Of a DNA stretch of 27,551 nucleotides, positions 1-10,315 are shown piece after piece (the stretch's first letter is position 1; every line of letters begins with the position of its first letter). Origin of the DNA: a virus. Taxonomy: Duplodnaviria > Heunggongvirae > Uroviricota > Caudoviricetes > Demerecviridae. The DNA is taken from the IMG/VR virus record IMGVR_UViG_3300042566_001359; one strand, 5' to 3'. The notes beneath the pieces are model-generated. The model had not been told where the DNA came from and searched no databases. It was given only the letters and a program-made list of their open reading frames with translations. A program made the position numbers and the translations under genes.

Positions 1-37
1 AAAAATCATAAACTATCTCCTAGCTAAAATTTACACC

Positions 38-66
38 TTGTTTTTTCGAAAAAAGTGTGCTATAAT
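38..66 (+). promoter_or_regulatory. sigma70-type promoter upstream of the D2-like gene
   Basis: TTGTTT(38-43)-17 bp-TATAAT(61-66) with TGn extended -10 (TGC-TATAAT). Confidence 0.55.
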
Positions 67-364
67 ATTAGTAATTGAAGAAACAGAGTACTAGGGCAGG
101 AGTTAGTAACAGTAACACCGAGGAAGTTGGAAAGTCTATAGATCTTTCCAATCTTCCACGGTTATGTAAACTGTGTAAACTAACTCCGCTGCCCTACAAA
201 CTGCCAAAATGGCCACAAGTATTTTTAACTTTTATTAACCCATTATTGTGGTTGGAGTGGGTGCGATAACAAAAGCAATCGCCCCACCTCGACCGCTTTC
301 ATACTCTAGAACTAATCTTCTAGACCCACAACTGATCCACTTTAGGGTCAATTCACGTTAGATT

Positions 365-1378
365 ATGAACGATATTAAACTACTAGACTTTCCAGGCTTA
401 GCCAGAGACTTTCAACAAACCTACACTCAACTACGAGACGAACGATTACGGCTAGCCCAGGCTGTTGCAGAACGCCGCTATCGACAACAGTATAACCAAT
501 TGGTCCAGCAATTTTCAGGTTACGATTCGGAAGCAGGTAGTGACGGCATTGAAGAATCGGTTCGAGAATCACTGGGCGAGTTCGACCCACAAGCGGTTCA
601 ACTGCCAGAATCGGTATTACGTGAGTGTAAACACACGGCTAAGAGTAGTGTGGTTGAAGCTTGGAGTCTTAAAAACTCCCTTCCACAAAAGCTAACTTGG
701 CTGCCGCATCAGCTGTTAGCATACTTTGGCACTTGGCAGGCTGTTCGTGACGACACAGGCAAGTATAGTGCCACACTAACCTGGGATGCCAACACCAGGG
801 CTCGCGGCGACTACTACGCCTTAGGGTCGGCATTGCTGGCTACCTCCACTCGCACAAATTTTTTCAAGGATGCGCCTAAGGGTAATCAGCAGTACAAAAG
901 TGTAATCAACCCACTTGTACCAATTATCTTAGCAGGATTTAAAAAGTATCAAGGCATCAACTATTCAGATTGGAATCCAGTTGGTTTGGAAACTTTGCTA
1001 GACCCTGAATTGGCCAAGCTTGTAGGTGTTTCGGTGCCGGAACTTTCACACAGCGAATTAATTGCGCTACGCAACACTGCCCTTACAGACAAAGAAGGTG
1101 CACGAGCAGGTATCCCCAATAATCCAGCTACTTGCACCAAGCTCAATCACCTTGGTAATACGGCCATAGGTCACCTACCAAAACTTGCCAAATACATGGT
1201 ACTACAAACCTGGGCAGCACATCCCAGCAATCGTAATGAGTATATGATCTTAGACCCTAACAATTGGGATCACATTCCAGAGCCCCTGATCGGCAAAGAT
1301 ATTTTCTTGCCCAAACCACTTCAAGCCACACAACCCAGAATGGTTACCAGCTATTCGGAACTACCATGGGATGCTTGA
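365..1378 (+). CDS. T5 D2-like early protein, function unknown
   Basis: 337-aa ORF. The motifs VPIILAGFKKYQGINYSDW, LSHSELIALRN and LPKLAKYMVLQTWAAHPS resemble T5 D2 as recalled, and an A2/D3-family gene follows as in T5. Confidence 0.55.
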   Translation: MNDIKLLDFPGLARDFQQTYTQLRDERLRLAQAVAERRYRQQYNQLVQQFSGYDSEAGSDGIEESVRESLGEFDPQAVQLPESVLRECKHTAKSSVVEAWSLKNSLPQKLTWLPHQLLAYFGTWQAVRDDTGKYSATLTWDANTRARGDYYALGSALLATSTRTNFFKDAPKGNQQYKSVINPLVPIILAGFKKYQGINYSDWNPVGLETLLDPELAKLVGVSVPELSHSELIALRNTALTDKEGARAGIPNNPATCTKLNHLGNTAIGHLPKLAKYMVLQTWAAHPSNRNEYMILDPNNWDHIPEPLIGKDIFLPKPLQATQPRMVTSYSELPWDA

Positions 1379-1379
1379 A

Positions 1380-1691
1380 ATGAAATACACCAAAGAAATT
1401 TGTGACCACATGGTTCAAGCCTATAATTCAGGGGTTACGGTGCCACAGCTAGCACAGGAGCTGGACGTGCCCGAACGCAGCATAATTGCCAAGCTATCGA
1501 GCCTGGGAGTCTACCAGAAAAAGAGCTACTTAAACAAGCGTGGTGAAACGCCGGTGAAAAAGTCAGAGCACATCGAACGCATTGCCATACTCTTGAACAC
1601 CAACCTAGAATTGCTAGAATCATTAGAAAAAGTCAACAAAACTGTGCTGGTCATGATCGAACGCGCGCTCACCGACCCTAAACTGCCATAA
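1380..1691 (+). CDS. A2/D3-family DNA-binding protein (D3-like by position after D2)
   Basis: RSIIAKLSSLGVY and LESLEKVNKTVL align with the A2-like paralogues in this window. ATG 1380 sits 1 nt after the D2 stop; 1371 is an alternative start. Confidence 0.7.
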   Translation: MKYTKEICDHMVQAYNSGVTVPQLAQELDVPERSIIAKLSSLGVYQKKSYLNKRGETPVKKSEHIERIAILLNTNLELLESLEKVNKTVLVMIERALTDPKLP

Positions 1692-1727
1692 TTGCACACA
1701 ATCCGACTTAATTGACGCTACAAACGC

Positions 1728-1763
1728 AAAAGCCCCATTATCATGTGATATTGGGGCTTTTTT
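1728..1763 (+). terminator. intrinsic terminator after D2-D3
   Basis: AAAAGCCCCA-loop-TGGGGCTTTTTT. Confidence 0.8.
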
Positions 1764-1833
1764 GTTTGTGTAATTCTCATGTTCGAATTTGTCCCAAATT
1801 CGAACACGTTAGCTCTAAGTGTACGTTACTGCT

Positions 1834-1901
1834 GCACTTGTTGCAGCTTAGGGTCATACAACACCTAAAGAATCTTTAGCACTTGTTGCAGCTTAGGGTC
1901 A
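1834..1901. repeat. 23-bp exact direct repeat, two copies
   Basis: GCACTTGTTGCAGCTTAGGGTCA at 1834-1856 and 1879-1901, 22-bp spacer. Confidence 0.9.
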
Positions 1902-1921
1902 GTACTCACAAGAATCCACAC

Positions 1922-1958
1922 TTGACAACAAAGGTTCTGCACTGGTATAATTTGGCGC
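1922..1958 (+). promoter_or_regulatory. GGCGC-type + strand promoter, copy 1
   Basis: TTGACA(1922-27)-18-TATAAT(1946-51)-TTGGCGC, with TGn extension. Confidence 0.75.
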
Positions 1959-2007
1959 AGACCGCAACAGACTAGGTGTAAAAATGTCGAGCTGACCAAA
2001 ACACCCA

Positions 2008-2046
2008 AAACAAAAGCCCCAAGAGTAGCTAACTCTTGGGGCTTTT
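2008..2046. terminator. strong bidirectional intrinsic terminator
   Basis: 15-bp perfect arms AAAAGCCCCAAGAGT/ACTCTTGGGGCTTTT with a 5-nt loop. On the - strand it is followed by UUUUGUUUU. Confidence 0.85.
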
Positions 2047-2276
2047 GAACAATCACGAGTGCACTCGCTGTTAGTTTTTAGTCTCACACGACGACTTACT
2101 GGGGGTACCACCCACGCTAACTGCATCGACCCTAAACTGGAGCACGGTCGCAGGGCATTAGGTTATTGCCTGTGTAGCTCTAGCAGGGGAGAAAGTATTG
2201 GTTCGGCTCTTCAGCCCACCACACGGTTTACGACACTGGGCTTTGTCGACTGCTATAGATTAACGACTGTTGCAGT

Positions 2277-2406
2277 TCGGGGTCGGGTGCTACGGTTCCA
2301 GCGCATGCACCACTTTTAGCGACTCGGGGTCGGGTGCTCCAGTCGAAGCTTTTGCACCACTTTTAACGACTTAGGGTCGAGTGCTCAGTTTGCGATAAGC
2401 ACCACT
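2277..2406. repeat. 47-bp-period repeat: 32-bp hairpin-forming units with 13-15-bp variable spacers
   Basis: GCACCACTTTTARCGACTYRGGGTCGRGTGCT at 2307-2338 and 2354-2385; partial copies at 2277-2291 and 2399-2406. Confidence 0.85.
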
Positions 2407-2649
2407 CAGGGGCCATTTAACGACAATCCGTGTCGGGCCACATTAACGAGGGCCAAGCTCGGGTACGTAAGTGCACCAGGCTGCCAAGACCATTTTACGT
2501 CGGTACCAGATAAGACGGCAGTTTATATAGTAACTGCTCACTAGGCTTACTCATTTCCAGCTAATCACTTTCAGTGGTGGGTCCATCCGGTTTTCGCTTT
2601 CGCTACTAGGCTTCAAGAGTCAGTCACATCCCGGTTTCGCTGGGTTTTC

Positions 2650-2751
2650 ATCCTGACCCTAAGGTACGGCAAGCGGTGATGTGGGAAAATCACGCACACT
2701 TGCTGTGAGGCCTTAAGGTTTCGCACAACTTGCATGTGCTCATCAGAGGGT
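2650..2751 (-). ncRNA. candidate type I hammerhead ribozyme
   Basis: Minus strand: ACCCU-CUGAUGA-GCACA(UGCAAGU)UGUGC-GAA-ACCUUAAGG[46 nt]CCUUAGGGU-C/AGGAU. This gives an intact core, a G-C closed stem II, a 9-bp stem III, a GUC cleavage triplet and a short stem I. Confidence 0.65.
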
Positions 2752-2965
2752 TGGTATCGCATACGGGTAACGATCCCGTCTAGGTACCTTGAAAGGGTAC
2801 TGACCTCACCTGAAGTCGAATGCGATATGTTAAATTAGCCACGCAGGTATTTTACTACTTACCATACGGAACATCGTCCAGATATTACGGGCTAAAAAGG
2901 TTGGGCTGCGACTAGAGTTTGTTCGGTCGCAATCAAGTTGTTATCCCAGCATCGAGTGCTGAGCC

Positions 2966-3323
2966 TCATAACACCCATAAGTTAATCGGCCAACGTAATG
3001 GTCCACACTCAAATCGTAGATATAGGATGCGTAAGCTAAGTTTTCTGGCTTAAAGGTTGCTGCCTTTCCATACTTCGCCGCTTACTCCAACAGAGCCTAT
3101 CGCCGTAACAATTATAGTTGCGCTACTAGATTACTGCCACCAGCAAGTAGCTGGCCGATTAACTTATGGATTCATAACACCCATAATAAAGTACCCAGCA
3201 AATTCTTGCAGAGTTGCAGCATTCTACCACTTTCGCCGTCTCGGCCGAGACCTACCGGTGGGGTTAATCTGCATACATCTAACAAGCAAACCAGGCTAGC
3301 ACTGTCTGGGTACTTTATTATGG
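2966..3323. repeat. two adjacent 18-bp perfect inverted-repeat pairs plus a 15-bp direct repeat
   Basis: 2975-2992/3152-3169 (CCATAAGTTAATCGGCCA) and 3181-3198/3306-3323 (CCATAATAAAGTACCCAG). TCATAACACCCATAA at 2966-2980 and 3172-3186. Confidence 0.9.
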
Positions 3324-3411
3324 ACACTAAGGGCTGTGGCTCGGTTCCCGAAGGTATTCCCCACAATTAAGACGCTGCTTGACGCGACCGCTGTCACCCA
3401 ATCTATACTAT

Positions 3412-3441
3412 ATTATAACATACAACAGTTAACATAATCAA
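3412..3441 (-). promoter_or_regulatory. sigma70 promoter at the head of the ncRNA candidate
   Basis: Minus strand TTGATT-18-TATAAT with TGn extension; +1 about 3405. Confidence 0.7.
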
Positions 3442-3483
3442 GATAATATTTAGTAGCCTTGTTAACTGCTGTTGTCTTATCGC

Positions 3484-3525
3484 TTTCTAAGTATATATTA
3501 TATCAAACTCAATTAACAAAATCAA
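3484..3525 (-). promoter_or_regulatory. sigma70 promoter, no ATG ORF downstream
   Basis: TTGATT-17-TATAAT. The -10/leader GATATAATATATACTTAGAAA is identical to that of the 3679-3720 promoter. Confidence 0.7.
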
Positions 3526-3678
3526 CAAAAGAATTCCAATCGTTTCCTCAAGACTAGCTTCGCAGGTGTGTCGACGTACAGTGACTGGTTAGTGATTGCG
3601 GCTGCTGAGGCAGAACTGGCACCGGTTGATTAATCACACGGTATTCATTAAGCCATTCCCGACTGGGTTCTTTGTTAA

Positions 3679-3720
3679 TTTCTAAGTATATATTATATCG
3701 CGAAATGGGTCACAGATCAA
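3679..3720 (-). promoter_or_regulatory. sigma70 promoter, no ATG ORF downstream
   Basis: TTGATC-17-TATAAT, with the same 21-nt -10/leader as 3484-3504. Confidence 0.7.
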
Positions 3721-3743
3721 GTGTAGATTTTGTGACCCTAAAC

Positions 3744-4055
3744 TTAAGCAAGTTCTGCAACCAGACGCTCAAGCACTTCGTGGTTGGCCTTTTCCAGGCT
3801 TTCAAACACTTCTGGAGCAACGCCGCAGGCAAGTGCCAGCTTGTCCACCAGTTCGGCTTTACGCACACGGTGTTGGCCGGTGGCCTTGGTTTTGGCCACG
3901 TACACGCCTTCGCGGCTGAGTTTGGCCACTACACTGCGTACGGTTTTGCCCAGGGTCTCGGCCAGTTGTTCCACGGTCTTGCCCGACTGGTAGCCTGTGA
4001 CGAGTTCCACGGTTTGCTCGGGAGTGTAGTTTTGAGGGGTTGCTTTAGTCATCAT
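3744..4055 (-). CDS. A2-like pre-early DNA-binding protein, paralogue 1
   Basis: NYTPEQT...GKTVRSVVAKLSREGVYVAKT...ESLEKAN. RBS AAAGGA before ATGATG (4055/4052). The longer ORF from 4331 is upstream read-through. Confidence 0.8.
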   Translation of the reverse strand: MMTKATPQNYTPEQTVELVTGYQSGKTVEQLAETLGKTVRSVVAKLSREGVYVAKTKATGQHRVRKAELVDKLALACGVAPEVFESLEKANHEVLERLVAELA

Positions 4056-4092
4056 ATGTCCTTTGGTTGGTTTCTGCGCTGTTGAAGATTCT

Positions 4093-4121
4093 ATTATACG
4101 TGAATCAGAAGGGAACATCAA
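4093..4121 (-). promoter_or_regulatory. pre-early-type promoter
   Basis: TTGATG-17-TATAAT-AGAATCTTCAAC. The leader is shared with the promoter at 5594-5621. Confidence 0.75.
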
Positions 4122-4236
4122 GATCAAAATTTTCGTCTTGAGTGGTAGTATCACAAAACATTTCCGATAGTTCCGCATCCACAAATTCATCGAATGCCGC
4201 ATACTGATACGCTGTGAAAAATTCGTTTGTTGCCAT
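4105..4236 (-). CDS. 43-aa acidic microprotein ending in DLDVPF
   Basis: Hand-translated MATNEFFTAYQYAAFDEFVDAELSEMFCDTTTQDENFDLDVPF. RBS AGGAG and its own promoter TTGCAG-17-TATAAT (4264-4292). Confidence 0.7.
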   Translation of the reverse strand: MATNEFFTAYQYAAFDEFVDAELSEMFCDTTTQDENFDLDVPF

Positions 4237-4308
4237 CTGCCGTTATCTCCTGTTGATGTAATAATTATACAAAACTTGGACACTTGCTGCAATATCAAAA
4301 ATTTCGTC

Positions 4309-4345
4309 TTGACACTGTAAAGCTTTTGCACTTATAATTTGGCGC
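4309..4345 (+). promoter_or_regulatory. GGCGC-type + strand promoter, copy 2
   Basis: TTGACA(4309-14)-18-TATAAT(4333-38)-TTGGCGC, followed by degenerate TTTTGCACTT...TGGCGCA repeats to about 4430. Confidence 0.7.
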
Positions 4346-4450
4346 AGCAAACCCTCAAGTTTTTGCACTTGACCGCGCACTGGCGCAAGGCCCAAGGTTT
4401 TGCACTTGACAAGGTTTCGCACTGGCGCAGCACGGTTACCGTGCTGGTTA

Positions 4451-4550
4451 AATTGTGACCCAGCAGTCACAAACTAGACCGATCAGTCGCAATCTATACC
4501 GATCAGTCGGTGACCAGACTGTTCAGTCGGCATCTATACTGTGCAGTCAC
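4451..4550. repeat. five degenerate 20-bp tandem repeats (iteron-like)
   Basis: Units start at 4451, 4471, 4491, 4511 and 4531, with CAGTC at the same offset in each (e.g. AAACTAGACCGATCAGTCGC, AATCTATACCGATCAGTCGG). Confidence 0.8.
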
Positions 4551-4652
4551 AAAATGCCTGGTACAGTATAATTATGACCGGGCGGTTTCGGCGCAAGAAT
4601 CGTGCCAGGTGGCACAAAAACAACACCCAATTGTAACAGTTTGTAACAGTCG

Positions 4653-4740
4653 TTGACACGGGCCGCAAAATTGTGGTATAATTTTGGCGCAGTTTTGCAA
4701 ACAAAAGTATTCATTTTTGTTTGCAAACAAAAGTACTCAT
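4653..4740 (+). promoter_or_regulatory. GGCGC-type promoter plus GCAAAC hairpin, copy 3
   Basis: TTGACA(4653)-18-TATAAT(4677)-TTTGGCGC. Hairpin TTTGCAAACAAAA-GTATTCAT-TTTTGTTTGCAAA at 4694-4727. Confidence 0.8.
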
Positions 4741-4753
4741 TTGTGGACAAAAT

Positions 4754-4778
4754 AAAACCCGCATAATAGCGGGTTATT
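4754..4778. terminator. intrinsic terminator, mainly - strand
   Basis: AACCCGC-ATAATA-GCGGGTT immediately after the stop at 4780. Confidence 0.7.
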
Positions 4779-4779
4779 A

Positions 4780-5025
4780 TTAAATAAATGCGGATCTGGG
4801 GATTTTAACCAATTGATTGAGATAATCAATCTCCCATTCATAATGGGCGAATGTCTCATAATCATAATCACCAGTCATTGCCAGCAAATAATCGGCGGCA
4901 ATATTAATATAGTTTGGCCGAATTTTGGAGAATGGCAAACCATTATAATCGCTTGGATTAATATCTAATTGGCAAAATGTGAGAATCACGGGTTTATCGG
5001 CAAAACTTGGCAAATTGAAAAGCAT
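4780..5025 (-). CDS. hypothetical 81-aa protein (MLFNLPSF...)
   Basis: RBS GAGGA 8 nt before ATG 5025, directly after the stop of the 5027-5164 ORF. Confidence 0.65.
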   Translation of the reverse strand: MLFNLPSFADKPVILTFCQLDINPSDYNGLPFSKIRPNYINIAADYLLAMTGDYDYETFAHYEWEIDYLNQLVKIPRSAFI

Positions 5026-5026
5026 T

Positions 5027-5164
5027 TTATTGTTCCTCAGAAAAGTAAACCACACGGTTAACGGCCGGCACATTATCATAATCCTGATTTTCTAAACCAG
5101 CTTCTTCTAATGTGAGAAAATCGGTTAAATCTTCCCATTGCATTTGGTCAACCAAATCAAACAT
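5027..5164 (-). CDS. 45-aa acidic microprotein
   Basis: MFDLVDQMQWEDLTDFLTLEEAGLENQDYDNVPAVNRVVYFSEEQ; RBS AAGGA. Confidence 0.65.
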   Translation of the reverse strand: MFDLVDQMQWEDLTDFLTLEEAGLENQDYDNVPAVNRVVYFSEEQ

Positions 5165-5184
5165 TATATTCCTTTTGAAAAAAT

Positions 5185-5229
5185 CCTATTATATGGGATA
5201 ATCCCATATAATAGGGCTTTCGCCCTATT
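5185..5229. repeat. 31-bp palindrome overlapping a GAAA-loop terminator-like hairpin
   Basis: CCTATTATATGGGAT-A-ATCCCATATAATAGG (5185-5215) and AATAGGGC-TTTC-GCCCTATT (5210-5229), just after the stop at 5232. Confidence 0.85.
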
Positions 5230-5231
5230 AA

Positions 5232-5564
5232 TCAAATTGGCTTAGAATTAGCCAATGCTGAAAAAATCTTTTCCAACGCCGTTTTATTGGCTTTTGTAAG
5301 AGATTCGATCTCATTTTCAGTCAATTTGAGAATCGCGCCGATTGCATCAGCGTGAGCATCTTTTTTGACTACTGGAGCACCAGTTTTGGAAACGTAGGTT
5401 TTAGCCACGTAAACTTTTTCGCGTGACAGTTTAGCCACAACTGAACGAACGGTTTTGCCCATGCTTTCAGCAATTGATTCCACTGTGACACCAGCCGCAT
5501 AATCGGCCACCATTTTAGCGGTTTGCTCTGCGGTATAGTTGACCGCCTTAGTTGCTTTTTCCAT
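5232..5564 (-). CDS. A2-like pre-early DNA-binding protein, paralogue 2
   Basis: GKTVRSVVAKLSREKVYVAKTYVSKTG and ESLTKANKTAL. RBS AAAGGA; promoter TTGCAA-16-TATAAT at 5594-5621. Confidence 0.85.
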   Translation of the reverse strand: MEKATKAVNYTAEQTAKMVADYAAGVTVESIAESMGKTVRSVVAKLSREKVYVAKTYVSKTGAPVVKKDAHADAIGAILKLTENEIESLTKANKTALEKIFSALANSKPI

Positions 5565-5753
5565 TTTGATTTCCTTTCAGTGTTGAAGATTCTATTATAT
5601 CAGGTTTTTGGCTTTTTGCAAGAAAAAAGAAAATTTATTTTTCTTTTCTTGATCTGCTACCAAATCCGATCATTTGGTGGCATGAGTCTATTATACTGGG
5701 TTTTTGCCTAAAAAGTCAGGTGTGCGAAAATACAACATAGGTGGAAACCCCTA

Positions 5754-5861
5754 TTGACAACCTGAAAAATCCGTGGTATAATTTGGCGCCAACTATATAA
5801 GCATTTGCTTATATAAGCAAACACGCATGAATTTTTGGCGCCCACACCCAATTATACCACG
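5754..5861. promoter_or_regulatory. GGCGC-type promoter copy 4, TATATAAGCA palindrome and a facing - strand extended -10
   Basis: TTGACA(5754)-17-TATAAT(5777)-TTGGCGCC; palindrome at 5794-5815; CGTGGTATAATT (5772-83) inverted at 5850-61. Confidence 0.75.
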
Positions 5862-5912
5862 AAAATCCGTTGTTTTTTAATCCCCTACAAAAAATAAGTT
5901 ATACGAAAAAAC

Positions 5913-6004
5913 TTGACACGGGCCAAAATCATATGCTATAATTTTGGCGCAGTTTTGAAAACAAAAGTATTCATTTTTCAAAATGCAAACTTTTGTTTTC
6001 AAAA
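5913..6004 (+). promoter_or_regulatory. GGCGC-type promoter plus hairpin variant, copy 5
   Basis: TTGACA(5913)-18-TATAAT(5937)-TTTGGCGC. 16-bp inverted repeat TTTTGAAAACAAAAGT at 5953-68/5989-6004. Confidence 0.8.
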
Positions 6005-6008
6005 TGGC

Positions 6009-6030
6009 AAAAGCCCCACCTGGGGGCTTT
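6009..6030. terminator. bidirectional intrinsic terminator
   Basis: AAAAGCCCC-ACCTG-GGGGCTTTT, adjacent to the stop at 6033. Confidence 0.8.
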
Positions 6031-6032
6031 TA

Positions 6033-6284
6033 TTATCTTTTTGGTTTAATCTTATAATATAAGATAATCCCAATAAATACGATGTTGGCGGTATAGTTGA
6101 ATATCAGGGGCCAATGCCATTTAGGGATAATATAAATAATAGTGAATATCTCACCAACGCCCCACATAATCAAAAAACTCCAAGTTAATCCGTCCGAGTT
6201 TTTGGTTTTATAAGATTCTATTGCTTGTGGTAATCCACAAAATGCCAATAATATAGAACCAATCCAGCCAATATATTCCATCAT
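6033..6284 (-). CDS. PQ-loop/SemiSWEET-family small membrane protein
   Basis: 83 aa, three hydrophobic segments, LPQAIESYKTKNSDGLTW PQ-loop signature; RBS GGAG. Confidence 0.8.
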   Translation of the reverse strand: MMEYIGWIGSILLAFCGLPQAIESYKTKNSDGLTWSFLIMWGVGEIFTIIYIIPKWHWPLIFNYTANIVFIGIILYYKIKPKR

Positions 6285-6397
6285 TTGATTATCTCCGTGA
6301 TAGTTTGAATTTGAAAAGGGTTAGTATCATATCTAGAATCTAACCGTTTATCTTCTGAAAAGTGCAAAACCAGTGCAATAATCCAAAGTATTTTCAT
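6281..6397 (-). CDS. 38-aa microprotein with hydrophobic N-terminus
   Basis: MKILWIIALVLHFSEDKRLDSRYDTNPFQIQTITEIIK; its stop overlaps the next start (ATGA). Confidence 0.5.
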   Translation of the reverse strand: MKILWIIALVLHFSEDKRLDSRYDTNPFQIQTITEIIK

Positions 6398-6434
6398 TTG
6401 GTTAATAATCGGGGTTATTAGCCCCGATTATTAT

Positions 6435-7133
6435 TTATTTTGCAACAAACCAGTTTTTAGTTTGAAAATCGCGCCAATTATAAGGCTTGATATTATCTTT
6501 CCAATTGCGTTTTTTGAGTATGGCTTTCAAAATCGGCAATTCAAAATCACGGGCATCTTCTAATGCGGTATGCGGTTCTTTTACAAACTCGCCATTAATA
6601 AAACCGCATACAATCTCCGCATTAGTTTGGAAAGTCATATTACCCTGAACAGTGGGTTTATTAAATGCGTGATTATCAAGGGCAAATTGGCGATAATCTT
6701 TTTTATTGCAAATATTACCAACTGAAGCAGACCACAAACAAAACTCTTGAGTAAAACCCGATAAATCAATTCCAGTATTAAGGCATTTTGATTTATCAAA
6801 AGCCAGATTATAGGCAGTCAATTGGGGATTATATTTGCCAATGGCTTGGTTAATCCATTTATTAATGGCATTAACTGAAGCCACCATTCTAGTGCCATTA
6901 TCTAACATAATAGCATAATTGGATTTACGTTTTTCCAAACCAGAATAACCCCAAATATCATTGGCCGCTTTATCATGAAACAATTCATGAGTGCCATAAT
7001 GACCGGCAACTAATACCGCACATTGATTATAAATTTTGCCTTCGCGGTCAACGATAATAATCGCAAAATCTGCGACTGTATCGGCCATTGTGGTTTCTGT
7101 ATCGAGAATCGCAAAATACTGTTTTTTAGCCAT
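6435..7133 (-). CDS. DEDDh (DnaQ-like) 3'-5' exonuclease
   Basis: ExoI LDTETT, ExoII YNLAFD, ExoIII HTALED. Probable start MAKKQYF at 7133. Confidence 0.85.
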   Translation of the reverse strand: MAKKQYFAILDTETTMADTVADFAIIIVDREGKIYNQCAVLVAGHYGTHELFHDKAANDIWGYSGLEKRKSNYAIMLDNGTRMVASVNAINKWINQAIGKYNPQLTAYNLAFDKSKCLNTGIDLSGFTQEFCLWSASVGNICNKKDYRQFALDNHAFNKPTVQGNMTFQTNAEIVCGFINGEFVKEPHTALEDARDFELPILKAILKKRNWKDNIKPYNWRDFQTKNWFVAK

Positions 7134-7243
7134 TTGGTTTCCAATTACCGGATACTGCCGGAATTCGCAGATTGTAGCGTTTTGCTGCAATAGAGTTATT
7201 ATACCCGATATTTTAGGAAATCGGGCAAAACCTGCAAATTATT

Positions 7244-7459
7244 TTAAAAAAAGTTGTTGTAAATTCCCAACAAGTTTGCCAAGAAAAATGTACCATTTAG
7301 TACACCAAGCGAACGATCACGGCGAACAAAAGCCACAATCAACCACGACAAAGAACCAAAAGTAAACAAAACGTACCCCAATTTAAACATTGCGCTTGCA
7401 ACTGCAAACGAACCCAAAATTGAAACCAAAGTACCAAACCAACTGAGAATATTAAGCAT
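7244..7459 (-). CDS. 71-aa three-TM membrane protein (possibly PnuC/SemiSWEET-like)
   Basis: MLNILSWFGTLVSILG...GSLSW...LNGTFFLANLLGIY. The start overlaps the SprT-like gene stop. Confidence 0.7.
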   Translation of the reverse strand: MLNILSWFGTLVSILGSFAVASAMFKLGYVLFTFGSLSWLIVAFVRRDRSLGVLNGTFFLANLLGIYNNFF

Positions 7460-7835
7460 TTTTTGTAATCGCCATTTTGTGAAAAGGATTTGCAGGTAAA
7501 CCATATTCTAACATGATTTTTTGCCAATTTTCGCCATGCCCGCAAATTTTTTCGGATTCGCCAAAAAGATTATAATCGGCTTGATGGATAATTTCATGCG
7601 GAAGTATTACATCAATCATTGTATTGAAGTATTCTGGTTTAGCTTTGAAAAATTTGTAACCCAAATGTATGCGGTTTTCAGTTTGAAAACATTTGCCAGC
7701 GCAACGCCAAATGTAAGGGTTAAGTTCTATCTTAGGCTCATTGTAGTGAACCAGTGGAGTATAAATTTCGCAAAGTGTATCCCAAATCATTACAGTCTCA
7801 CGCTGTATGAGGGTTAAGAGTGATTTTTTGTCCAT
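7452..7835 (-). CDS. SprT-like zinc metalloprotease
   Basis: PHEIIHQ (HExxH) plus GHGENWQKIM (HG..W) motif. Start MDKKS at 7835, apparently leaderless. Confidence 0.8.
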   Translation of the reverse strand: MDKKSLLTLIQRETVMIWDTLCEIYTPLVHYNEPKIELNPYIWRCAGKCFQTENRIHLGYKFFKAKPEYFNTMIDVILPHEIIHQADYNLFGESEKICGHGENWQKIMLEYGLPANPFHKMAITKNA

Positions 7836-7890
7836 GCTGAAATTATACCCCAATAAAACCCGATTTTTTCGCAGATCACATAAAAAGAAG

Positions 7891-7916
7891 TGTAACAGTT
7901 GGCCCACGCTGTTACA
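7891..7916. promoter_or_regulatory. operator-like inverted repeat TGTAACA-N12-TGTTACA
   Basis: TGTAACAG-10-CTGTTACA. The same 26-bp geometry occurs at 8939-8964. Confidence 0.6.
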
Positions 7917-7946
7917 ATTATTTATGTTGTTTTTTTGCAAAACCCC

Positions 7947-8028
7947 TTGACAGGGGCTAAAATTATGTGGTATAATTTTGGCGCAAACTGCAAACCAAAG
8001 TATTCATTTTGGTTTGCAAACAAAAGTG
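7947..8028 (+). promoter_or_regulatory. GGCGC-type promoter plus GCAAAC hairpin, copy 6
   Basis: TTGACA(7947)-18-TATAAT(7971)-TTTGGCGC. Hairpin TGCAAACCAAA-GTATTCAT-TTTGGTTTGCA at 7989-8018; the element abuts the stop at 8029. Confidence 0.8.
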
Positions 8029-8373: not shown

Positions 8374-8850
8374 TTAGTGACCTTGTTTGCTTGGAACATA
8401 AACCCCGCGAATATTAAAGCGATCACAAACCGCTTTTAAATAAGTGGTATTATCCTCATAAAATGTAAATTCAGCATCACGGAAATTCTTTAAATTAAAG
8501 AATTTAGCCAAACCCGCAATTTTGAGTTTACCGCCTGAAGTAGTATCACCATCACAACGACTGATAATATAATCAGGCTCACCCAAAACAGTTTTAATAA
8601 ACTCATTATCAGCATCACGCAAAACTCGCGCAGTGGCAATAATCACAAAAGTATTATCGTCTTGCAAATCTTTACGATATTGGGATGCTAATGGCAATAA
8701 TGAATCATCCATTGCACGATATTCATTCTGTCTCCAATAATCCAAATCAATACGTTCGCCATTATCGTCAACGATTGTACGATATCTGTGCAAACTGCAA
8801 ACAATAGTACCATCCATATCGTAAATCGAAACCTTTGTGATCTTAGCCAT
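8374..8850 (-). CDS. dmp: HAD-family deoxynucleoside-5'-monophosphatase (T5 Dmp-like)
   Basis: HAD motifs YDMDGT, ATAR, K, YEDN. The N-terminus ITKVSIYDMDGTIVCSLHR...DSLLPL...NTFVIIATAR parallels T5 Dmp as recalled. RBS AAGGA. Confidence 0.8.
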   Translation of the reverse strand: MAKITKVSIYDMDGTIVCSLHRYRTIVDDNGERIDLDYWRQNEYRAMDDSLLPLASQYRKDLQDDNTFVIIATARVLRDADNEFIKTVLGEPDYIISRCDGDTTSGGKLKIAGLAKFFNLKNFRDAEFTFYEDNTTYLKAVCDRFNIRGVYVPSKQGH

Positions 8851-9991: not shown

Positions 9992-10315
9992 TCAGGTCTT
10001 TTCAGCCTTGATGAAATCCGCAATGGCTTTCAATGCTGTTTTGTTGGCTTTTGTCAGCGATTCAACATCAGCTTCATTCAAGCCCAATGCATCACCAATG
10101 TAATCGGCAACAGCATCCTTTTTGATTACAGCCTCACCAGTTTTGGATACATAAGTCTTAGCCACATAAACTTTCTCACGCGAAAGCTTGGCAACCACAG
10201 AACGCACAGTTTTGCCCAATGCTTCAGCAATGGTTTCCACAGTTTTACCGGCTTGATAGTCGGCAACCATTTGCAGGGTTTGCTCAGGGGTATAGTTCAC
10301 AGTTTTAGCAGTCAT
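9992..10315 (-). CDS. A2-like pre-early DNA-binding protein, paralogue 3
   Basis: Shares a 27-aa identical core GKTVRSVVAKLSREKVYVAKTYVSKTG with 5232-5564; RBS AAAGGA. Confidence 0.85.
   Translation of the reverse strand: MTAKTVNYTPEQTLQMVADYQAGKTVETIAEALGKTVRSVVAKLSREKVYVAKTYVSKTGEAVIKKDAVADYIGDALGLNEADVESLTKANKTALKAIADFIKAEKT

What the first reader, a model, noticed from the sequence alone, without database searches (positions are those of the whole stretch)
2008..3405. Candidate about 1.4-kb structured non-coding RNA next to the pre-early region of a T5-like phage
Seen: about 1.7 kb with no credible ORF in an otherwise gene-dense genome. On the - strand it starts at a consensus promoter (TTGATT-18-TGnTATAAT, +1 about 3405, with two more promoters stacked upstream) and ends at a 15-bp terminator with a U-tract (2008-2046). 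Pairing is dense throughout. Examples: UGUGG-GG-AAUA-CC(UUCG)GG-AA-CC-GAG-CCACA, two 18-bp stems, GUAAGC/GCUUAC, UAUCGCA/UGCGAUA, ACGGG/CCCGU, GCAGUU/AACUGC, a hammerhead core and an array of CGAC/GUCG hairpins. Known: large phage ncRNAs such as GOLLD and ROOL exist, but I cannot match this to any family from memory. Inference: a modular, processed RNA (scaffold, decoy or anti-defence sponge) made very early in infection.
Basis: partly seen in the sequence, partly recalled or inferred. Interest (0 to 1): 0.9.

Follow-up and report, generated by a model that had tools for sequence, protein, structure and literature searches.

The report
Ribozyme-cut modular phage RNA operon
The gene-free stretch is a real non-coding RNA unit of an uncultured freshwater T5-like phage: a string of separately folded RNA modules, including a tRNA-Glu gene and a conserved self-cutting hammerhead ribozyme, rather than one giant RNA, and what it does is untested.

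Summary
Window 2008-3740 has no conserved ORF. On the - strand it has three stacked sigma-70-type promoters and a 16-bp terminator.

It is not one 1.4-kb fold. It is a mosaic of modules that relatives gain and lose:
- a near-invariant 5' domain;
- a domain closed by a covarying 18-bp stem;
- a second 18-bp-stem domain, a 206-nt segment (insert plus one repeat copy) missing in the closest relatives and in every fetched relative;
- a three-way junction;
- a type I hammerhead ribozyme;
- a 3' half with six CGAC-loop-GUCG-UWAAA hairpins.

The hammerhead core pattern occurs once, on the same strand, in 60 of 82 related loci. Its stems II and III covary. Rfam matches none of it. Indels ignore the reading frame. 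Contigs from four freshwater metatranscriptome libraries lie on the conserved parts.

Best reading: an RNA operon made by host polymerase and split by the ribozyme into two structured RNAs. The decoy or scaffold role is unproven.

This scan has met the same family on other DNA (e1-1852353), and similar ribozyme-containing RNA arrays in other phages.

The parts
3692..3741 (-). Promoter P1 (-35 TTGATC, -10 TATAAT at 3720-3692). Its -35 is enclosed by the inverted repeat GGGTCACA...TGTGACCC, which starts with a copy of the TTAGGGTC motif.
   Evidence: promoter scan. (motif). (the inverted repeat around the -35 is kept in many relatives).
3610..3665 (-). Conserved leader element CAGUCGGGAAKGGCUUAAUGAAU-hairpin-GCCMG, transcribed from P1.
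   Evidence: aligned in 22 distinct loci. The closing helix shows the compensatory change GGGC/GCCC to UGGC/GCCA, and the inner hairpin varies while staying paired.
3497..3525 (-). Promoter P2 (TTGATT-17-TATAAT with TG).
3412..3441 (-).
3331..3399 (-). Module A, the 5' domain: GGGUGACAGCGG-variable hairpin-CGUCUUAAUUGUGG-variable loop-CCGAGCCACAGCCC.
   Evidence: near-invariant single-stranded segments in 33 distinct loci, with one compensatory UGUAG/CUACA; the pattern is in 62 IMG/VR stretches; it is in only one GTDB contig.
3181..3323 (-). Module B: a branched domain of about 143 nt closed by an 18-bp stem (3323-3306 with 3198-3181).
   Evidence: inverted repeat I2; 49 predicted pairs, 16 with changes on both sides in only 6 sequences. 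G-U pairs in the stem fit RNA of this strand.
2966..3186 (-). Module C: a 191-nt insertion closed by a perfect 18-bp stem (3169-3152 with 2992-2975). It is flanked by the 15-nt direct repeat UUAUGGGUGUUAUGA (3186-3172 and 2980-2966).
   Evidence: D5, I5; the closest relatives L004/L005 run straight from 3172 to 2980, and no fetched locus holds the insert; its junction is not found in IMG/VR.
2902..2977 (-). Module D: a three-way junction, UGGGU-[GUUAU hairpin AUAAC]-ACUUGAU-[hairpin with loop CGAA..CUCUA]-GCCCA.
   Evidence: 22 pairs, 9 with changes on both sides in 11 sequences.
2752..2826 (-). tRNA-Glu(UUC) gene with encoded CCA. It has a full cloverleaf but an unusual T-loop, AUCGUUA.
   Evidence: ARAGORN; 78% identity to a phage tRNA-Glu; the same tRNA is at this place in 13 of 40 relatives scanned and absent in the closest ones; the Rfam tRNA model does not report it.
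2650..2751 (-). Type I hammerhead ribozyme:
- stem I: 2751-2747 with 2654-2650
- core CUGAUGA: 2746-2740
- stem II: 2739-2735 with 2727-2723
- GAAA: 2722-2719
- stem III: 2719-2711 with 2664-2656, carrying a 46-nt branched insert
The predicted cut is after C2655.
   Evidence: pattern counts. (38-sequence alignment): stem II is 96% paired with 4 of 5 pairs changed on both sides; stem III is 88% paired; H17 is C or A; the MFE fold forms stems II and III.
2488..2544 (-). Module G: hairpin UAGKG/YMCUA, then hairpin CGYS-UUAUCUGGUACC-SRCG followed by UAAAAUGG.
   Evidence: helices are 88% and 98% paired with compensatory changes; slid controls give 27-61%. RNA-library contigs from all four runs lie here.
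2228..2435 (-). Array of CGAC-loop-GUCG-UWAAA hairpins: 2435-2416, 2379-2362, 2332-2315, 2285-2259 and 2248-2228. It includes a 47-nt tandem pair at 2370-2277. Together with the Gb hairpin in module G this makes six copies.
   Evidence: repeat family D1. (coordinates); the same hairpin type recurs in relatives. CGAC/GUCG changes to CAAC/GUUG, which is compensatory.
2194..2221 (-). Module H second hairpin, UGG-GGCU-GAAG-AGCC-(G)AACCA, followed by the conserved AAUACU.
   Evidence: 4 pairs with changes on both sides in 8 sequences.
2128..2139 (-). Distal copy of the motif CAGUUUAGGGUC, the same word as at the hammerhead cut site. It is kept about 90-130 nt before the terminator in relatives.
2004..2047 (-). 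Intrinsic terminator: a 16-bp stem, a 5-nt loop and a U-tract.
   Evidence: It is conserved in relatives (hits to 2055-2001).

Best explanation
Window about 3690-2004 (- strand) is a non-coding RNA operon of an uncultured freshwater T5-like phage.

Host sigma-70 RNA polymerase starts at three stacked near-consensus promoters and stops at an intrinsic terminator (promoter and terminator matches are shown; their use is inferred). The transcript is a row of independently folding modules joined by short conserved linkers. Shown by covariation: the leader, domain B, junction D, the hammerhead, and modules G and H. Domain A is shown by sequence conservation and a single compensatory change.

Modules behave as cassettes. 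The tRNA-Glu, domain B and the window-specific domain C are present in some relatives and absent in others, whereas the hammerhead is nearly universal (shown).

The type I hammerhead would cut after C2655 (inferred from an intact, conserved core; cleavage itself is untested). The cut would give two RNAs:
- a 5' RNA carrying domains A-D, the tRNA-Glu and the ribozyme, ending in a 2',3'-cyclic phosphate;
- a 3' RNA of about 650 nt that begins with a 5'-OH, carries six CGAC-loop-GUCG-UWAAA hairpins and ends in the terminator hairpin.

I infer that the cut uncouples the fates of the two halves, and that the 3' half is a stable RNA whose repeated hairpins bind many copies of one protein (a scaffold or decoy). 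The tRNA-Glu, where present, would be released by the host's tRNA-processing enzymes.
For: - Non-coding: no conserved ORF, and indels are not in threes.
- Promoters and terminator. Promoter-like sites number 49 against 16.8 expected in windows 1-8000.
- Homologous region downstream of the same DNA-binding-protein gene in dozens of IMG/VR contigs, conserved block by block.
- Hammerhead: the core pattern occurs once per locus, on the same strand, in 60 of 82 loci, and in variant form in at least 5 more. It occurs once per near-complete relative genome. Paired cells are 78% against 66% in shuffles (0 of 500 shuffles reach this) and against 31-43% when slid. Stem II covaries through AU/UA/CG and CG/GC/UA/AU. 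H17 is C or A, never G.
- Covariation in B, D, G, H and the leader. G-U pairs in B's stem favour RNA of the - strand.
- tRNA-Glu by ARAGORN here and in 13 of 40 relatives. Rfam tRNA scores 49-51 bits in two relatives.
- In distant relatives the unit is promoter, about 300 nt, hammerhead, terminator.
- Contigs from four freshwater metatranscriptome libraries (four studies) lie on 2064-2676 and 3316-3488.
- Folding z-scores are -3.44 and -1.94.
Against: - Self-cleavage is not shown.
- Stem I is short (3-5 bp, with a C-A mismatch in the window), and no Rfam hammerhead model reports the element even in a 211-nt search.
- The RNA-library evidence is contigs only. It cannot show strand, ends or level, DNA carry-over cannot be excluded, and one contig reaches across the predicted cut site (2568-2676).
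- The 3' half folds only marginally better than shuffles (z = -1.94).
- The window's tRNA-Glu is missed by the Rfam tRNA model and has a non-canonical T-loop, so it may not decode.
- The word (G)TTTAGGGTC at the cut site also occurs on both strands and across the genome. This points to a DNA-level role for at least some copies.
- Nothing tested here identifies a binding partner for the hairpin array.
Confidence: 0.7

Rival explanations
1. It is one large RNA with a single global fold, like GOLLD or ROOL. The modules are domains of one machine, and the hammerhead only trims it.
For: The unit is long, ORF-free, promoter-to-terminator and rich in conserved helices. The sense and antisense copies of GACCCUAA/UUAGGGUC within the RNA could form long-range helices.
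Against: Modules are gained and lost independently. The closest relatives lack the tRNA and domain C, and distant ones have about 450 nt in all. No long-range helix gained support: flank complementarity between antisense and distal motif copies is no better than permuted pairs (4.54 against 4.40 of 6; 223 of 2000 permutations reach the observed value). There are no Rfam GOLLD or ROOL matches.
Confidence: 0.08
2. The region acts mainly as DNA. It would be a regulatory or injection-stop-like repeat region, as in the 1.2-kb untranslated Repeat Region 3 of T5, bound by the neighbouring D5/A2-like DNA-binding paralogues. Its transcripts would be secondary.
For: - T5 has a 1.2-kb untranslated, repeat-rich region at the end of its first-step-transfer DNA (10.1101/866236).
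- Four paralogous DNA-binding proteins (phrog_323, phrog_1725) flank the region.
- TTAGGGTC occurs 12 times in the window against 0.56 expected, on both strands, with 10 copies in 342-3741.
- It is spread over whole relative genomes.
- An inverted pair of it encloses the -35 of P1, like an operator.
Against: - There are no DnaA boxes in 1500-4200, which are the defining feature of the T5 iss region.
- The region holds a tRNA gene and a ribozyme whose helices covary, with G-U pairs that are mismatches in DNA.
- It is bracketed by strong promoters and a terminator on one strand.
- T5 and a T5-like vibriophage have no such hammerhead.
- A DNA role for the short motif does not explain the other conserved helices.
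Confidence: 0.1
3. It is a decaying tRNA gene cluster. The modules would be remnants of tRNAs and their spacers, and the hammerhead a processing aid for the tRNA precursor.
For: T5-like phages carry tRNA clusters (my knowledge). A tRNA-Glu sits directly 5' of the ribozyme, with its CCA abutting stem I. In several relatives the sequence before the ribozyme ends in CACCA.
Against: ARAGORN finds only the single tRNA-Glu in the window and at most one in each of 40 relatives. The other modules have conserved non-tRNA architectures under purifying selection. The ribozyme cuts 97 nt 3' of the CCA, so it does not make the tRNA's end. The ribozyme is kept in the many relatives without a tRNA.
Confidence: 0.05
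4. The 3' half is a specific anti-defence mimic. Its hairpin-plus-UWAAA units would imitate a host RNA that a defence protein binds or cuts, for example type III antitoxin repeats (as pseudo-ToxI does in phage phiTE) or CRISPR repeats.
For: There are six units of similar form, two of them in a 47-nt tandem. The A-rich tract after each hairpin resembles the kind of site cut by ToxN-type enzymes (my knowledge). The unit has strong early-type promoters.
Against: The hairpin type is conserved over phages whose flanking protein has diverged to about 55% identity. That is unlike a mimic tuned to one host system. The units are not identical tandem repeats. A 32-nt unit with 13-15-nt spacers does not fit a CRISPR array, and no host counterpart was identified.
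Confidence: 0.07

Closest known systems
Type I hammerhead ribozymes of phages and prophages (Perreault et al. 2011, PMC3088659; Rfam Hammerhead_1 RF00163)
   Same: It has the same catalytic core (CUGAYGA, GAAA, the A15.1-U16.1 pair, GUH cut site), three helices with the open end at stem I, and a position in a long phage transcript where it would split the RNA.
   Different: Stem III carries a conserved 32-46-nt branched insert and stem I is only 3-5 bp. No Rfam hammerhead model reports it. It lies inside a non-coding RNA array rather than between genes.
Large ornate phage-associated RNAs GOLLD and ROOL (Rfam RF01998, RF03087)
   Same: It is a long, ORF-free, highly structured RNA in phage DNA. 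GOLLD loci can also hold tRNAs (my knowledge).
   Different: There is no sequence or structure match. This unit is a variable chain of cassettes and contains a ribozyme; no single global fold is supported.
Untranslated Repeat Region 3 / injection stop signal of phage T5 (Davison 2020, 10.1101/866236)
   Same: It is a non-coding stretch of more than 1 kb beside early-type genes for DNA-binding proteins in a T5-like genome, with dispersed direct and inverted repeats.
   Different: There are no DnaA boxes. This region has promoters, a terminator, a tRNA and a ribozyme on one strand. T5 has no such hammerhead.
Stable small RNAs co-transcribed with tRNAs in T-even and T5 tRNA clusters (my knowledge, not checked here)
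   Same: These are non-coding structured RNAs of unknown role, made from the same precursor as phage tRNAs.
   Different: Those are released by host RNases. Here a self-cleaving ribozyme is built in, and only one tRNA, itself optional, is present.
Earlier notes of this scan: e1-1852353 (same family, other genome); e1-1855737, e1-1959119 and e1-1969298 (other phages)
   Same: These are gene-poor phage stretches resolved into rows of RNA modules with a hammerhead. e1-1852353 also reports the GACCCTAARYTG motif beside the RNA.
   Different: Those are AI notes on other windows. Only the parts retested here count.

Membership tests
Hammerhead ribozyme | Conserved core: C3 U4 G5 A6 N7 G8 A9, G12 A13 A14, the A15.1-U16.1 pair, and H17 (not G) at the cut site. 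| tested here: met
   The core lies at 2746-2740, 2722-2719 and 2656-2655. It is invariant in 38 aligned relatives except N7 (U or C) and H17 (C or A).
Hammerhead ribozyme | Three helices around the core, supported by covariation. | tested here: met
   Stem II is 96% paired with 4 of 5 pairs changed on both sides. Stem III is 88% paired. Stem I is 75% paired, and its pair nearest the core switches UA to AU in 4 sequences. Stem I is short.
Hammerhead ribozyme | Match to a curated Rfam hammerhead covariance model. | tested here: not met
   There is no hammerhead hit at E up to 10 in 2.1-kb and 211-nt searches, nor in six relatives at E up to 1. This is probably because of the long stem III insert.
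Hammerhead ribozyme | Site-specific self-cleavage giving 2',3'-cyclic phosphate and 5'-OH ends. | not testable with these tools
   Only contigs of RNA libraries were available.
tRNA (tRNA-Glu) | Cloverleaf with 7-bp acceptor stem, anticodon loop and discriminator plus CCA. | tested here: met
   ARAGORN calls 2826-2752 with anticodon UUC. By eye, all four arms pair and the CCA is encoded.
tRNA (tRNA-Glu) | Score above the Rfam tRNA gathering threshold; canonical T-loop U54 U55 C56 R57 A58. | tested here: not met
   It is not reported by cmscan at any threshold used. The T-loop reads AUCGUUA. Relatives' copies score 49-51 bits.
GOLLD / ROOL large RNAs | Match to the Rfam covariance model. | tested here: not met
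   There are no matches at gathering score over the whole window, or at E up to 10 over 1700-3800.
T5 injection-stop (iss) repeat region | Paired DnaA boxes TTWTNCACA within inverted repeats. | tested here: not met
   There is no DnaA box on either strand in 1500-4200.
T5 injection-stop (iss) repeat region | Position at the inner end of the long terminal repeat. | tested here: inconclusive
   No genome is held for the window. Contigs of relatives end inside this locus unusually often (24 of 79 within 2 kb downstream against 3 upstream), but at no fixed point.
CRISPR array or RNA anti-CRISPR repeat | Identical repeats of 28-37 nt separated by spacers of similar length. | tested here: not met
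   There are two 47-nt units 81% alike, with roughly 32-nt cores and 13-15-nt spacers. The other hairpins are irregularly spaced.

The most novel reading that the evidence does not exclude
The hammerhead releases a 5'-OH-capped RNA of about 650 nt whose six CGAC-loop-GUCG-UWAAA hairpins, several of which contain the word GACCCUAA, act as a multivalent decoy. One possibility is that they mimic the phage's own DNA operator word and so titrate the D5/A2-like DNA-binding paralogues, giving an RNA timer for the early-to-middle switch. The other is that they soak up a host RNA-binding defence or decay factor. Copies of the cut-site word elsewhere in the RNA could compete with ribozyme folding and so set the rate of release.
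Probability: 0.15. Interest if true: 0.85.

Novelty: new variant of a known kind. Interest (0 to 1): 0.62.

Why it matters
Natural roles of bacterial and phage hammerheads are still mostly unknown. Here a ribozyme is fixed at the centre of a conserved RNA operon with strong promoters, in a widespread group of freshwater phages of about 100 kb. This gives a concrete, testable job for it: separating two structured RNAs with different ends.

The locus also shows RNA modules, including a tRNA, being swapped like cassettes between fixed linkers. That is a form of non-coding genome plasticity that gene-centred annotation misses.

None of the modules other than the tRNA is in Rfam, so several new RNA motifs with good covariation could be described from existing metagenomes alone.

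Tried and rejected
- Rfam at gathering score and at E up to 10 gave only chance-level hits, mostly terminator look-alikes.
- blastn against cultured phages matched only the tRNA-Glu segment. The flanking 103-aa protein has no tblastn match in cultured phages and only a weak likeness to T5 A2 (E = 0.022 for a single comparison).
- A long-range helix between the antisense (GACCCUAA...) and distal sense (...UUAGGGUC) motif copies was tested. Flank complementarity was not above permuted controls, so it is not claimed.
- Trans or second-site cleavage at the distal UUUAGGGUC copy was considered. The window's copy is followed by GAUGC, which cannot form stem I, and no second catalytic core exists. 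The idea was dropped for this phage.
- Circular RNA via a phage ligase was considered. There is no RtcB in two near-complete relatives and only a sub-threshold RNA_ligase match. A PHROG 'polynucleotide kinase' hit for ORF 8374-8850 has no Pfam support. No claim is made.
- The hammerhead pattern hit in Vibrio phage 234P1 lies inside a tail gene and is taken as chance.
- RNA libraries: parts of the stretch without contig cover (2816-3285) prove nothing, since relatives lack or vary those modules. Contig depths cannot rank regions, so the very high depths on 2064-2533 in one run are not used as evidence of abundance.
- Module C's junction was sought in IMG/VR and not found.
Full report
**What is there**

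Between the + strand gene 1371-1691 and the - strand gene 3744-4055 there is about 2 kb without a credible gene. The stop-to-stop frames in it are not kept at full length across relatives. Indels against four relatives are mostly not multiples of three (11-33%), whereas the neighbouring gene aligns with no gaps or mostly 3-nt gaps.

On the - strand the consensus scan finds three promoters: 3720-3692, 3525-3497 and 3441-3412, the last two with a TG extension. It also finds a 16-bp terminator at 2047-2011.

**Origin**

No genome is held for the window. The large terminase is 50% identical to those of T5-like (Demerecviridae) vibriophages of about 113-118 kb. The tail completion protein matches the T5 p143 family.

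The four small paralogues around the locus match PHROG families annotated as D5-like regulator and DNA-binding protein. The DNA is held in lake-water metagenomes. 'Distant T5-like freshwater phage' is a fair description.

**Known families**

Rfam reports nothing at gathering score over the whole window. At E up to 10 over 1700-3800, and over 2630-2840 alone, it gives only chance-level hits.

ARAGORN finds a tRNA-Glu(UUC) at 2826-2752. All four arms pair and the CCA is encoded, but the T-loop is AUCGUUA and the Rfam tRNA model does not report it. Copies of this tRNA in two relatives score 49-51 bits.

**Relatives and mosaic structure**

The 103-aa protein upstream (3744-4055) retrieves 251 IMG/VR stretches, of which 79 loci were fetched. 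blastn of 1900-3800 against them shows conservation in blocks, not end to end.

- The closest relatives (L004/L005, protein 97% identical) lack 3171-2981 and the tRNA.
- Others have the tRNA but lack domain B.
- Distant relatives (L053 group) have only promoter, about 300 nt, hammerhead and terminator.
- ARAGORN finds the tRNA-Glu at the equivalent place in 13 of 40 relatives scanned, and never any other tRNA.

**The hammerhead**

The pattern CTGAYGAG-N8-36-CGAAA has one match in the window (0.01 expected). It has exactly one match, on the same strand, in 60 of 82 loci. At least five further loci carry variants with a different stem II closing pair, and several of the rest end before the site. 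Two near-complete relative genomes have exactly one copy each. T5 has none, and the single hit in a T5-like vibriophage is inside a tail gene.

In a 38-sequence alignment the core is invariant apart from N7 and H17 (C or A). Against the hammerhead structure:

| Measure | Result |
|---|---|
| Cells paired | 78% |
| Paired after shuffling | 66% (0 of 500 shuffles reach the observed value) |
| Paired with partners slid | 31-43% |
| Stem II | 96% paired, 4 of 5 pairs changed on both sides |
| Stem III | 88% paired |

The minimum-energy fold of the window's sequence forms stems II and III. The weak points are a short stem I (ACCCU/AGGAU with a C-A mismatch here; UUCCU/AGGAA in others), no Rfam hit, and no cleavage data. 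Phage and prophage hammerheads that cut long transcripts are known (PMC3088659).

**The other modules**

1. The P1 leader, CAGUCGGGAAKGGCUUAAUGAAU-hairpin-GCCMG, is kept in 22 distinct loci with a compensatory GGGC/GCCC to UGGC/GCCA change.
2. Domain A (3399-3331) has three almost invariant segments around variable hairpins in 33 distinct loci. Its pattern occurs in 62 IMG/VR stretches and in only one GTDB contig, a 2.9-kb piece of a metagenome bin.
3. Domain B (3323-3181) is closed by the first 18-bp stem. Of 49 predicted pairs, 16 changed on both sides in six sequences, with G-U pairs that would be mismatches in DNA or on the other strand.
4. Domain C (3169-2975) is closed by the second, perfect 18-bp stem. 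It is flanked by a 15-nt direct repeat (3186-3172 and 2980-2966). It is absent from every fetched relative, and its junction is not found in IMG/VR. It interrupts the 5' strand of junction D, so it looks like a recent cassette insertion.
5. Junction D (2977-2902) has 22 pairs, 9 changed on both sides in 11 sequences.
6. Module G (2544-2488) has two hairpins, 88% and 98% paired, with compensatory changes.
7. Six hairpins of the form CGAC-loop-GUCG-UWAAA lie between 2518 and 2228, two of them in a 47-nt tandem. The type recurs in relatives, with rare compensatory changes.
8. Hairpin H (2221-2194) covaries.

Folding energies are moderately better than shuffles: z = -3.44 for the 5' half and -1.94 for the 3' half.

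**Expression**

Four freshwater metatranscriptome libraries from four studies hold contigs that lie on the conserved parts: 2064-2676 in several runs and 3316-3488 in two. These are contigs, so they show presence in RNA libraries only, not strand, ends or level. One contig extends over the predicted cut site.

**The recurring word**

TTAGGGTC occurs 12 times in the window (0.56 expected). Ten copies lie within 342-3741, on both strands. One copy is the hammerhead's stem III 3' strand plus its cut site. Another lies about 90 nt before the terminator. Its complement sits in the CGACCCUAAGUCG hairpins, and an inverted pair encloses the -35 of P1.

The longer form GTTTAGGGTC is spread over whole relative genomes at 7-10 copies per 100 kb, against 0-1 for the control. 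I tested whether antisense and distal sense copies form a locus-specific long-range helix. They do not exceed permuted controls. The word is therefore most simply a protein-binding DNA site (operator-like at P1), re-used or coincident in the RNA.

**Interpretation**

The best-supported reading is a non-coding RNA operon transcribed by host polymerase. It is built of exchangeable structured cassettes and split by a built-in hammerhead into two parts:
- a 5' RNA with domains A-D, the optional tRNA-Glu and the ribozyme;
- a 3' RNA carrying the hairpin array, with a 5'-OH start and a terminator hairpin at the end.

The cut does not make the tRNA's 3' end, because it lies 97 nt downstream of the CCA. 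The ribozyme is also kept where there is no tRNA. Its role is therefore more likely to uncouple the two halves than to mature the tRNA. That the 3' half is a multivalent protein-binding RNA is inference from its repeated, sequence-conserved hairpins.

**Rivals**

- A single giant fold is disfavoured by the independent gain and loss of modules.
- A purely DNA-level, T5 iss-like element is disfavoured by the absence of DnaA boxes and by strand-specific RNA covariation.
- A decayed tRNA cluster is disfavoured because only one tRNA is ever found and the other modules are conserved as non-tRNA folds.
- A specific antitoxin or CRISPR mimic remains possible but lacks any identified counterpart.

**Novelty**

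The ribozyme class, phage tRNAs and large phage RNAs are all known. The combination is not in Rfam, and I did not find it in the searchable literature. That combination is a near-universal hammerhead with a long stem III insert at the centre of a cassette-built RNA operon in T5-like freshwater phages.

This scan has already met the family once on other DNA (e1-1852353), and analogous ribozyme-containing RNA arrays in unrelated phages (e1-1855737, e1-1959119, e1-1969298). The theme is recurrent rather than unique.

Noticed in passing
window 342-3741, 10853 and 18506; relatives G002 and G003 genome-wide: The word TTAGGGTC (longer form YRCRGTTTAGGGTC) occurs 12 times in the window against 0.56 expected, on both strands. 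It occurs 7-10 times per 100 kb in two relative genomes. One inverted pair encloses the -35 of promoter P1, like an operator.
   Followed up: partly
window 1922-1951 (+) facing the terminator 2011-2047: A perfect TTGACA-18-TGnTATAAT promoter on the + strand fires into the RNA unit's terminator hairpin from the other side. This block (1960-1919) is conserved in most relatives. It belongs to the backward promoter-hairpin cassettes noted elsewhere in this scan.
   Followed up: no
loci L004-L082 (relatives), downstream of the 103-aa gene: Metagenomic contigs end inside this RNA locus unusually often: 24 of 79 end within 2 kb downstream of the gene, against 3 of 79 within 2 kb upstream, and at no fixed point. 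Either strain-level cassette variation breaks assemblies, or a terminal-repeat boundary lies nearby. One 100-kb contig carries module A at both ends.
   Followed up: partly
window 8374-8850 (-): A 158-aa ORF in the early-type cluster matches PHROG 415, 'polynucleotide kinase' (E = 2.7e-10), but no Pfam family. Such an enzyme could act on the 5'-OH end left by the ribozyme.
   Followed up: partly
window 7452-7940 (-): A 162-aa ORF has an SprT-like metalloprotease domain (Pfam E = 5.8e-9).
   Followed up: no
window 1371-1691 (+), 3744-4055 (-), 5232-5564 (-), 9992-10315 (-): Four paralogous proteins of about 105 aa match PHROG families annotated as D5-like transcriptional regulator and DNA-binding protein. 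The likeness to T5 A2 is only marginal (E = 0.022).
   Followed up: partly
window 1834-1856 and 1879-1901 (+): There are two identical 23-nt copies of GCACTTGTTGCAGCTTAGGGTCA, 45 nt apart, just past the RNA unit's terminator. They are inverted relative to the copy at 3759-3728.
   Followed up: no
L028 about 6843, L071 about 6767, L024 about 7076: Variant hammerheads in some relatives have stem II replaced by a long arm (UGGUC...GACC) that itself contains the antisense motif UGACCCUAAACUGCAG.
   Followed up: no
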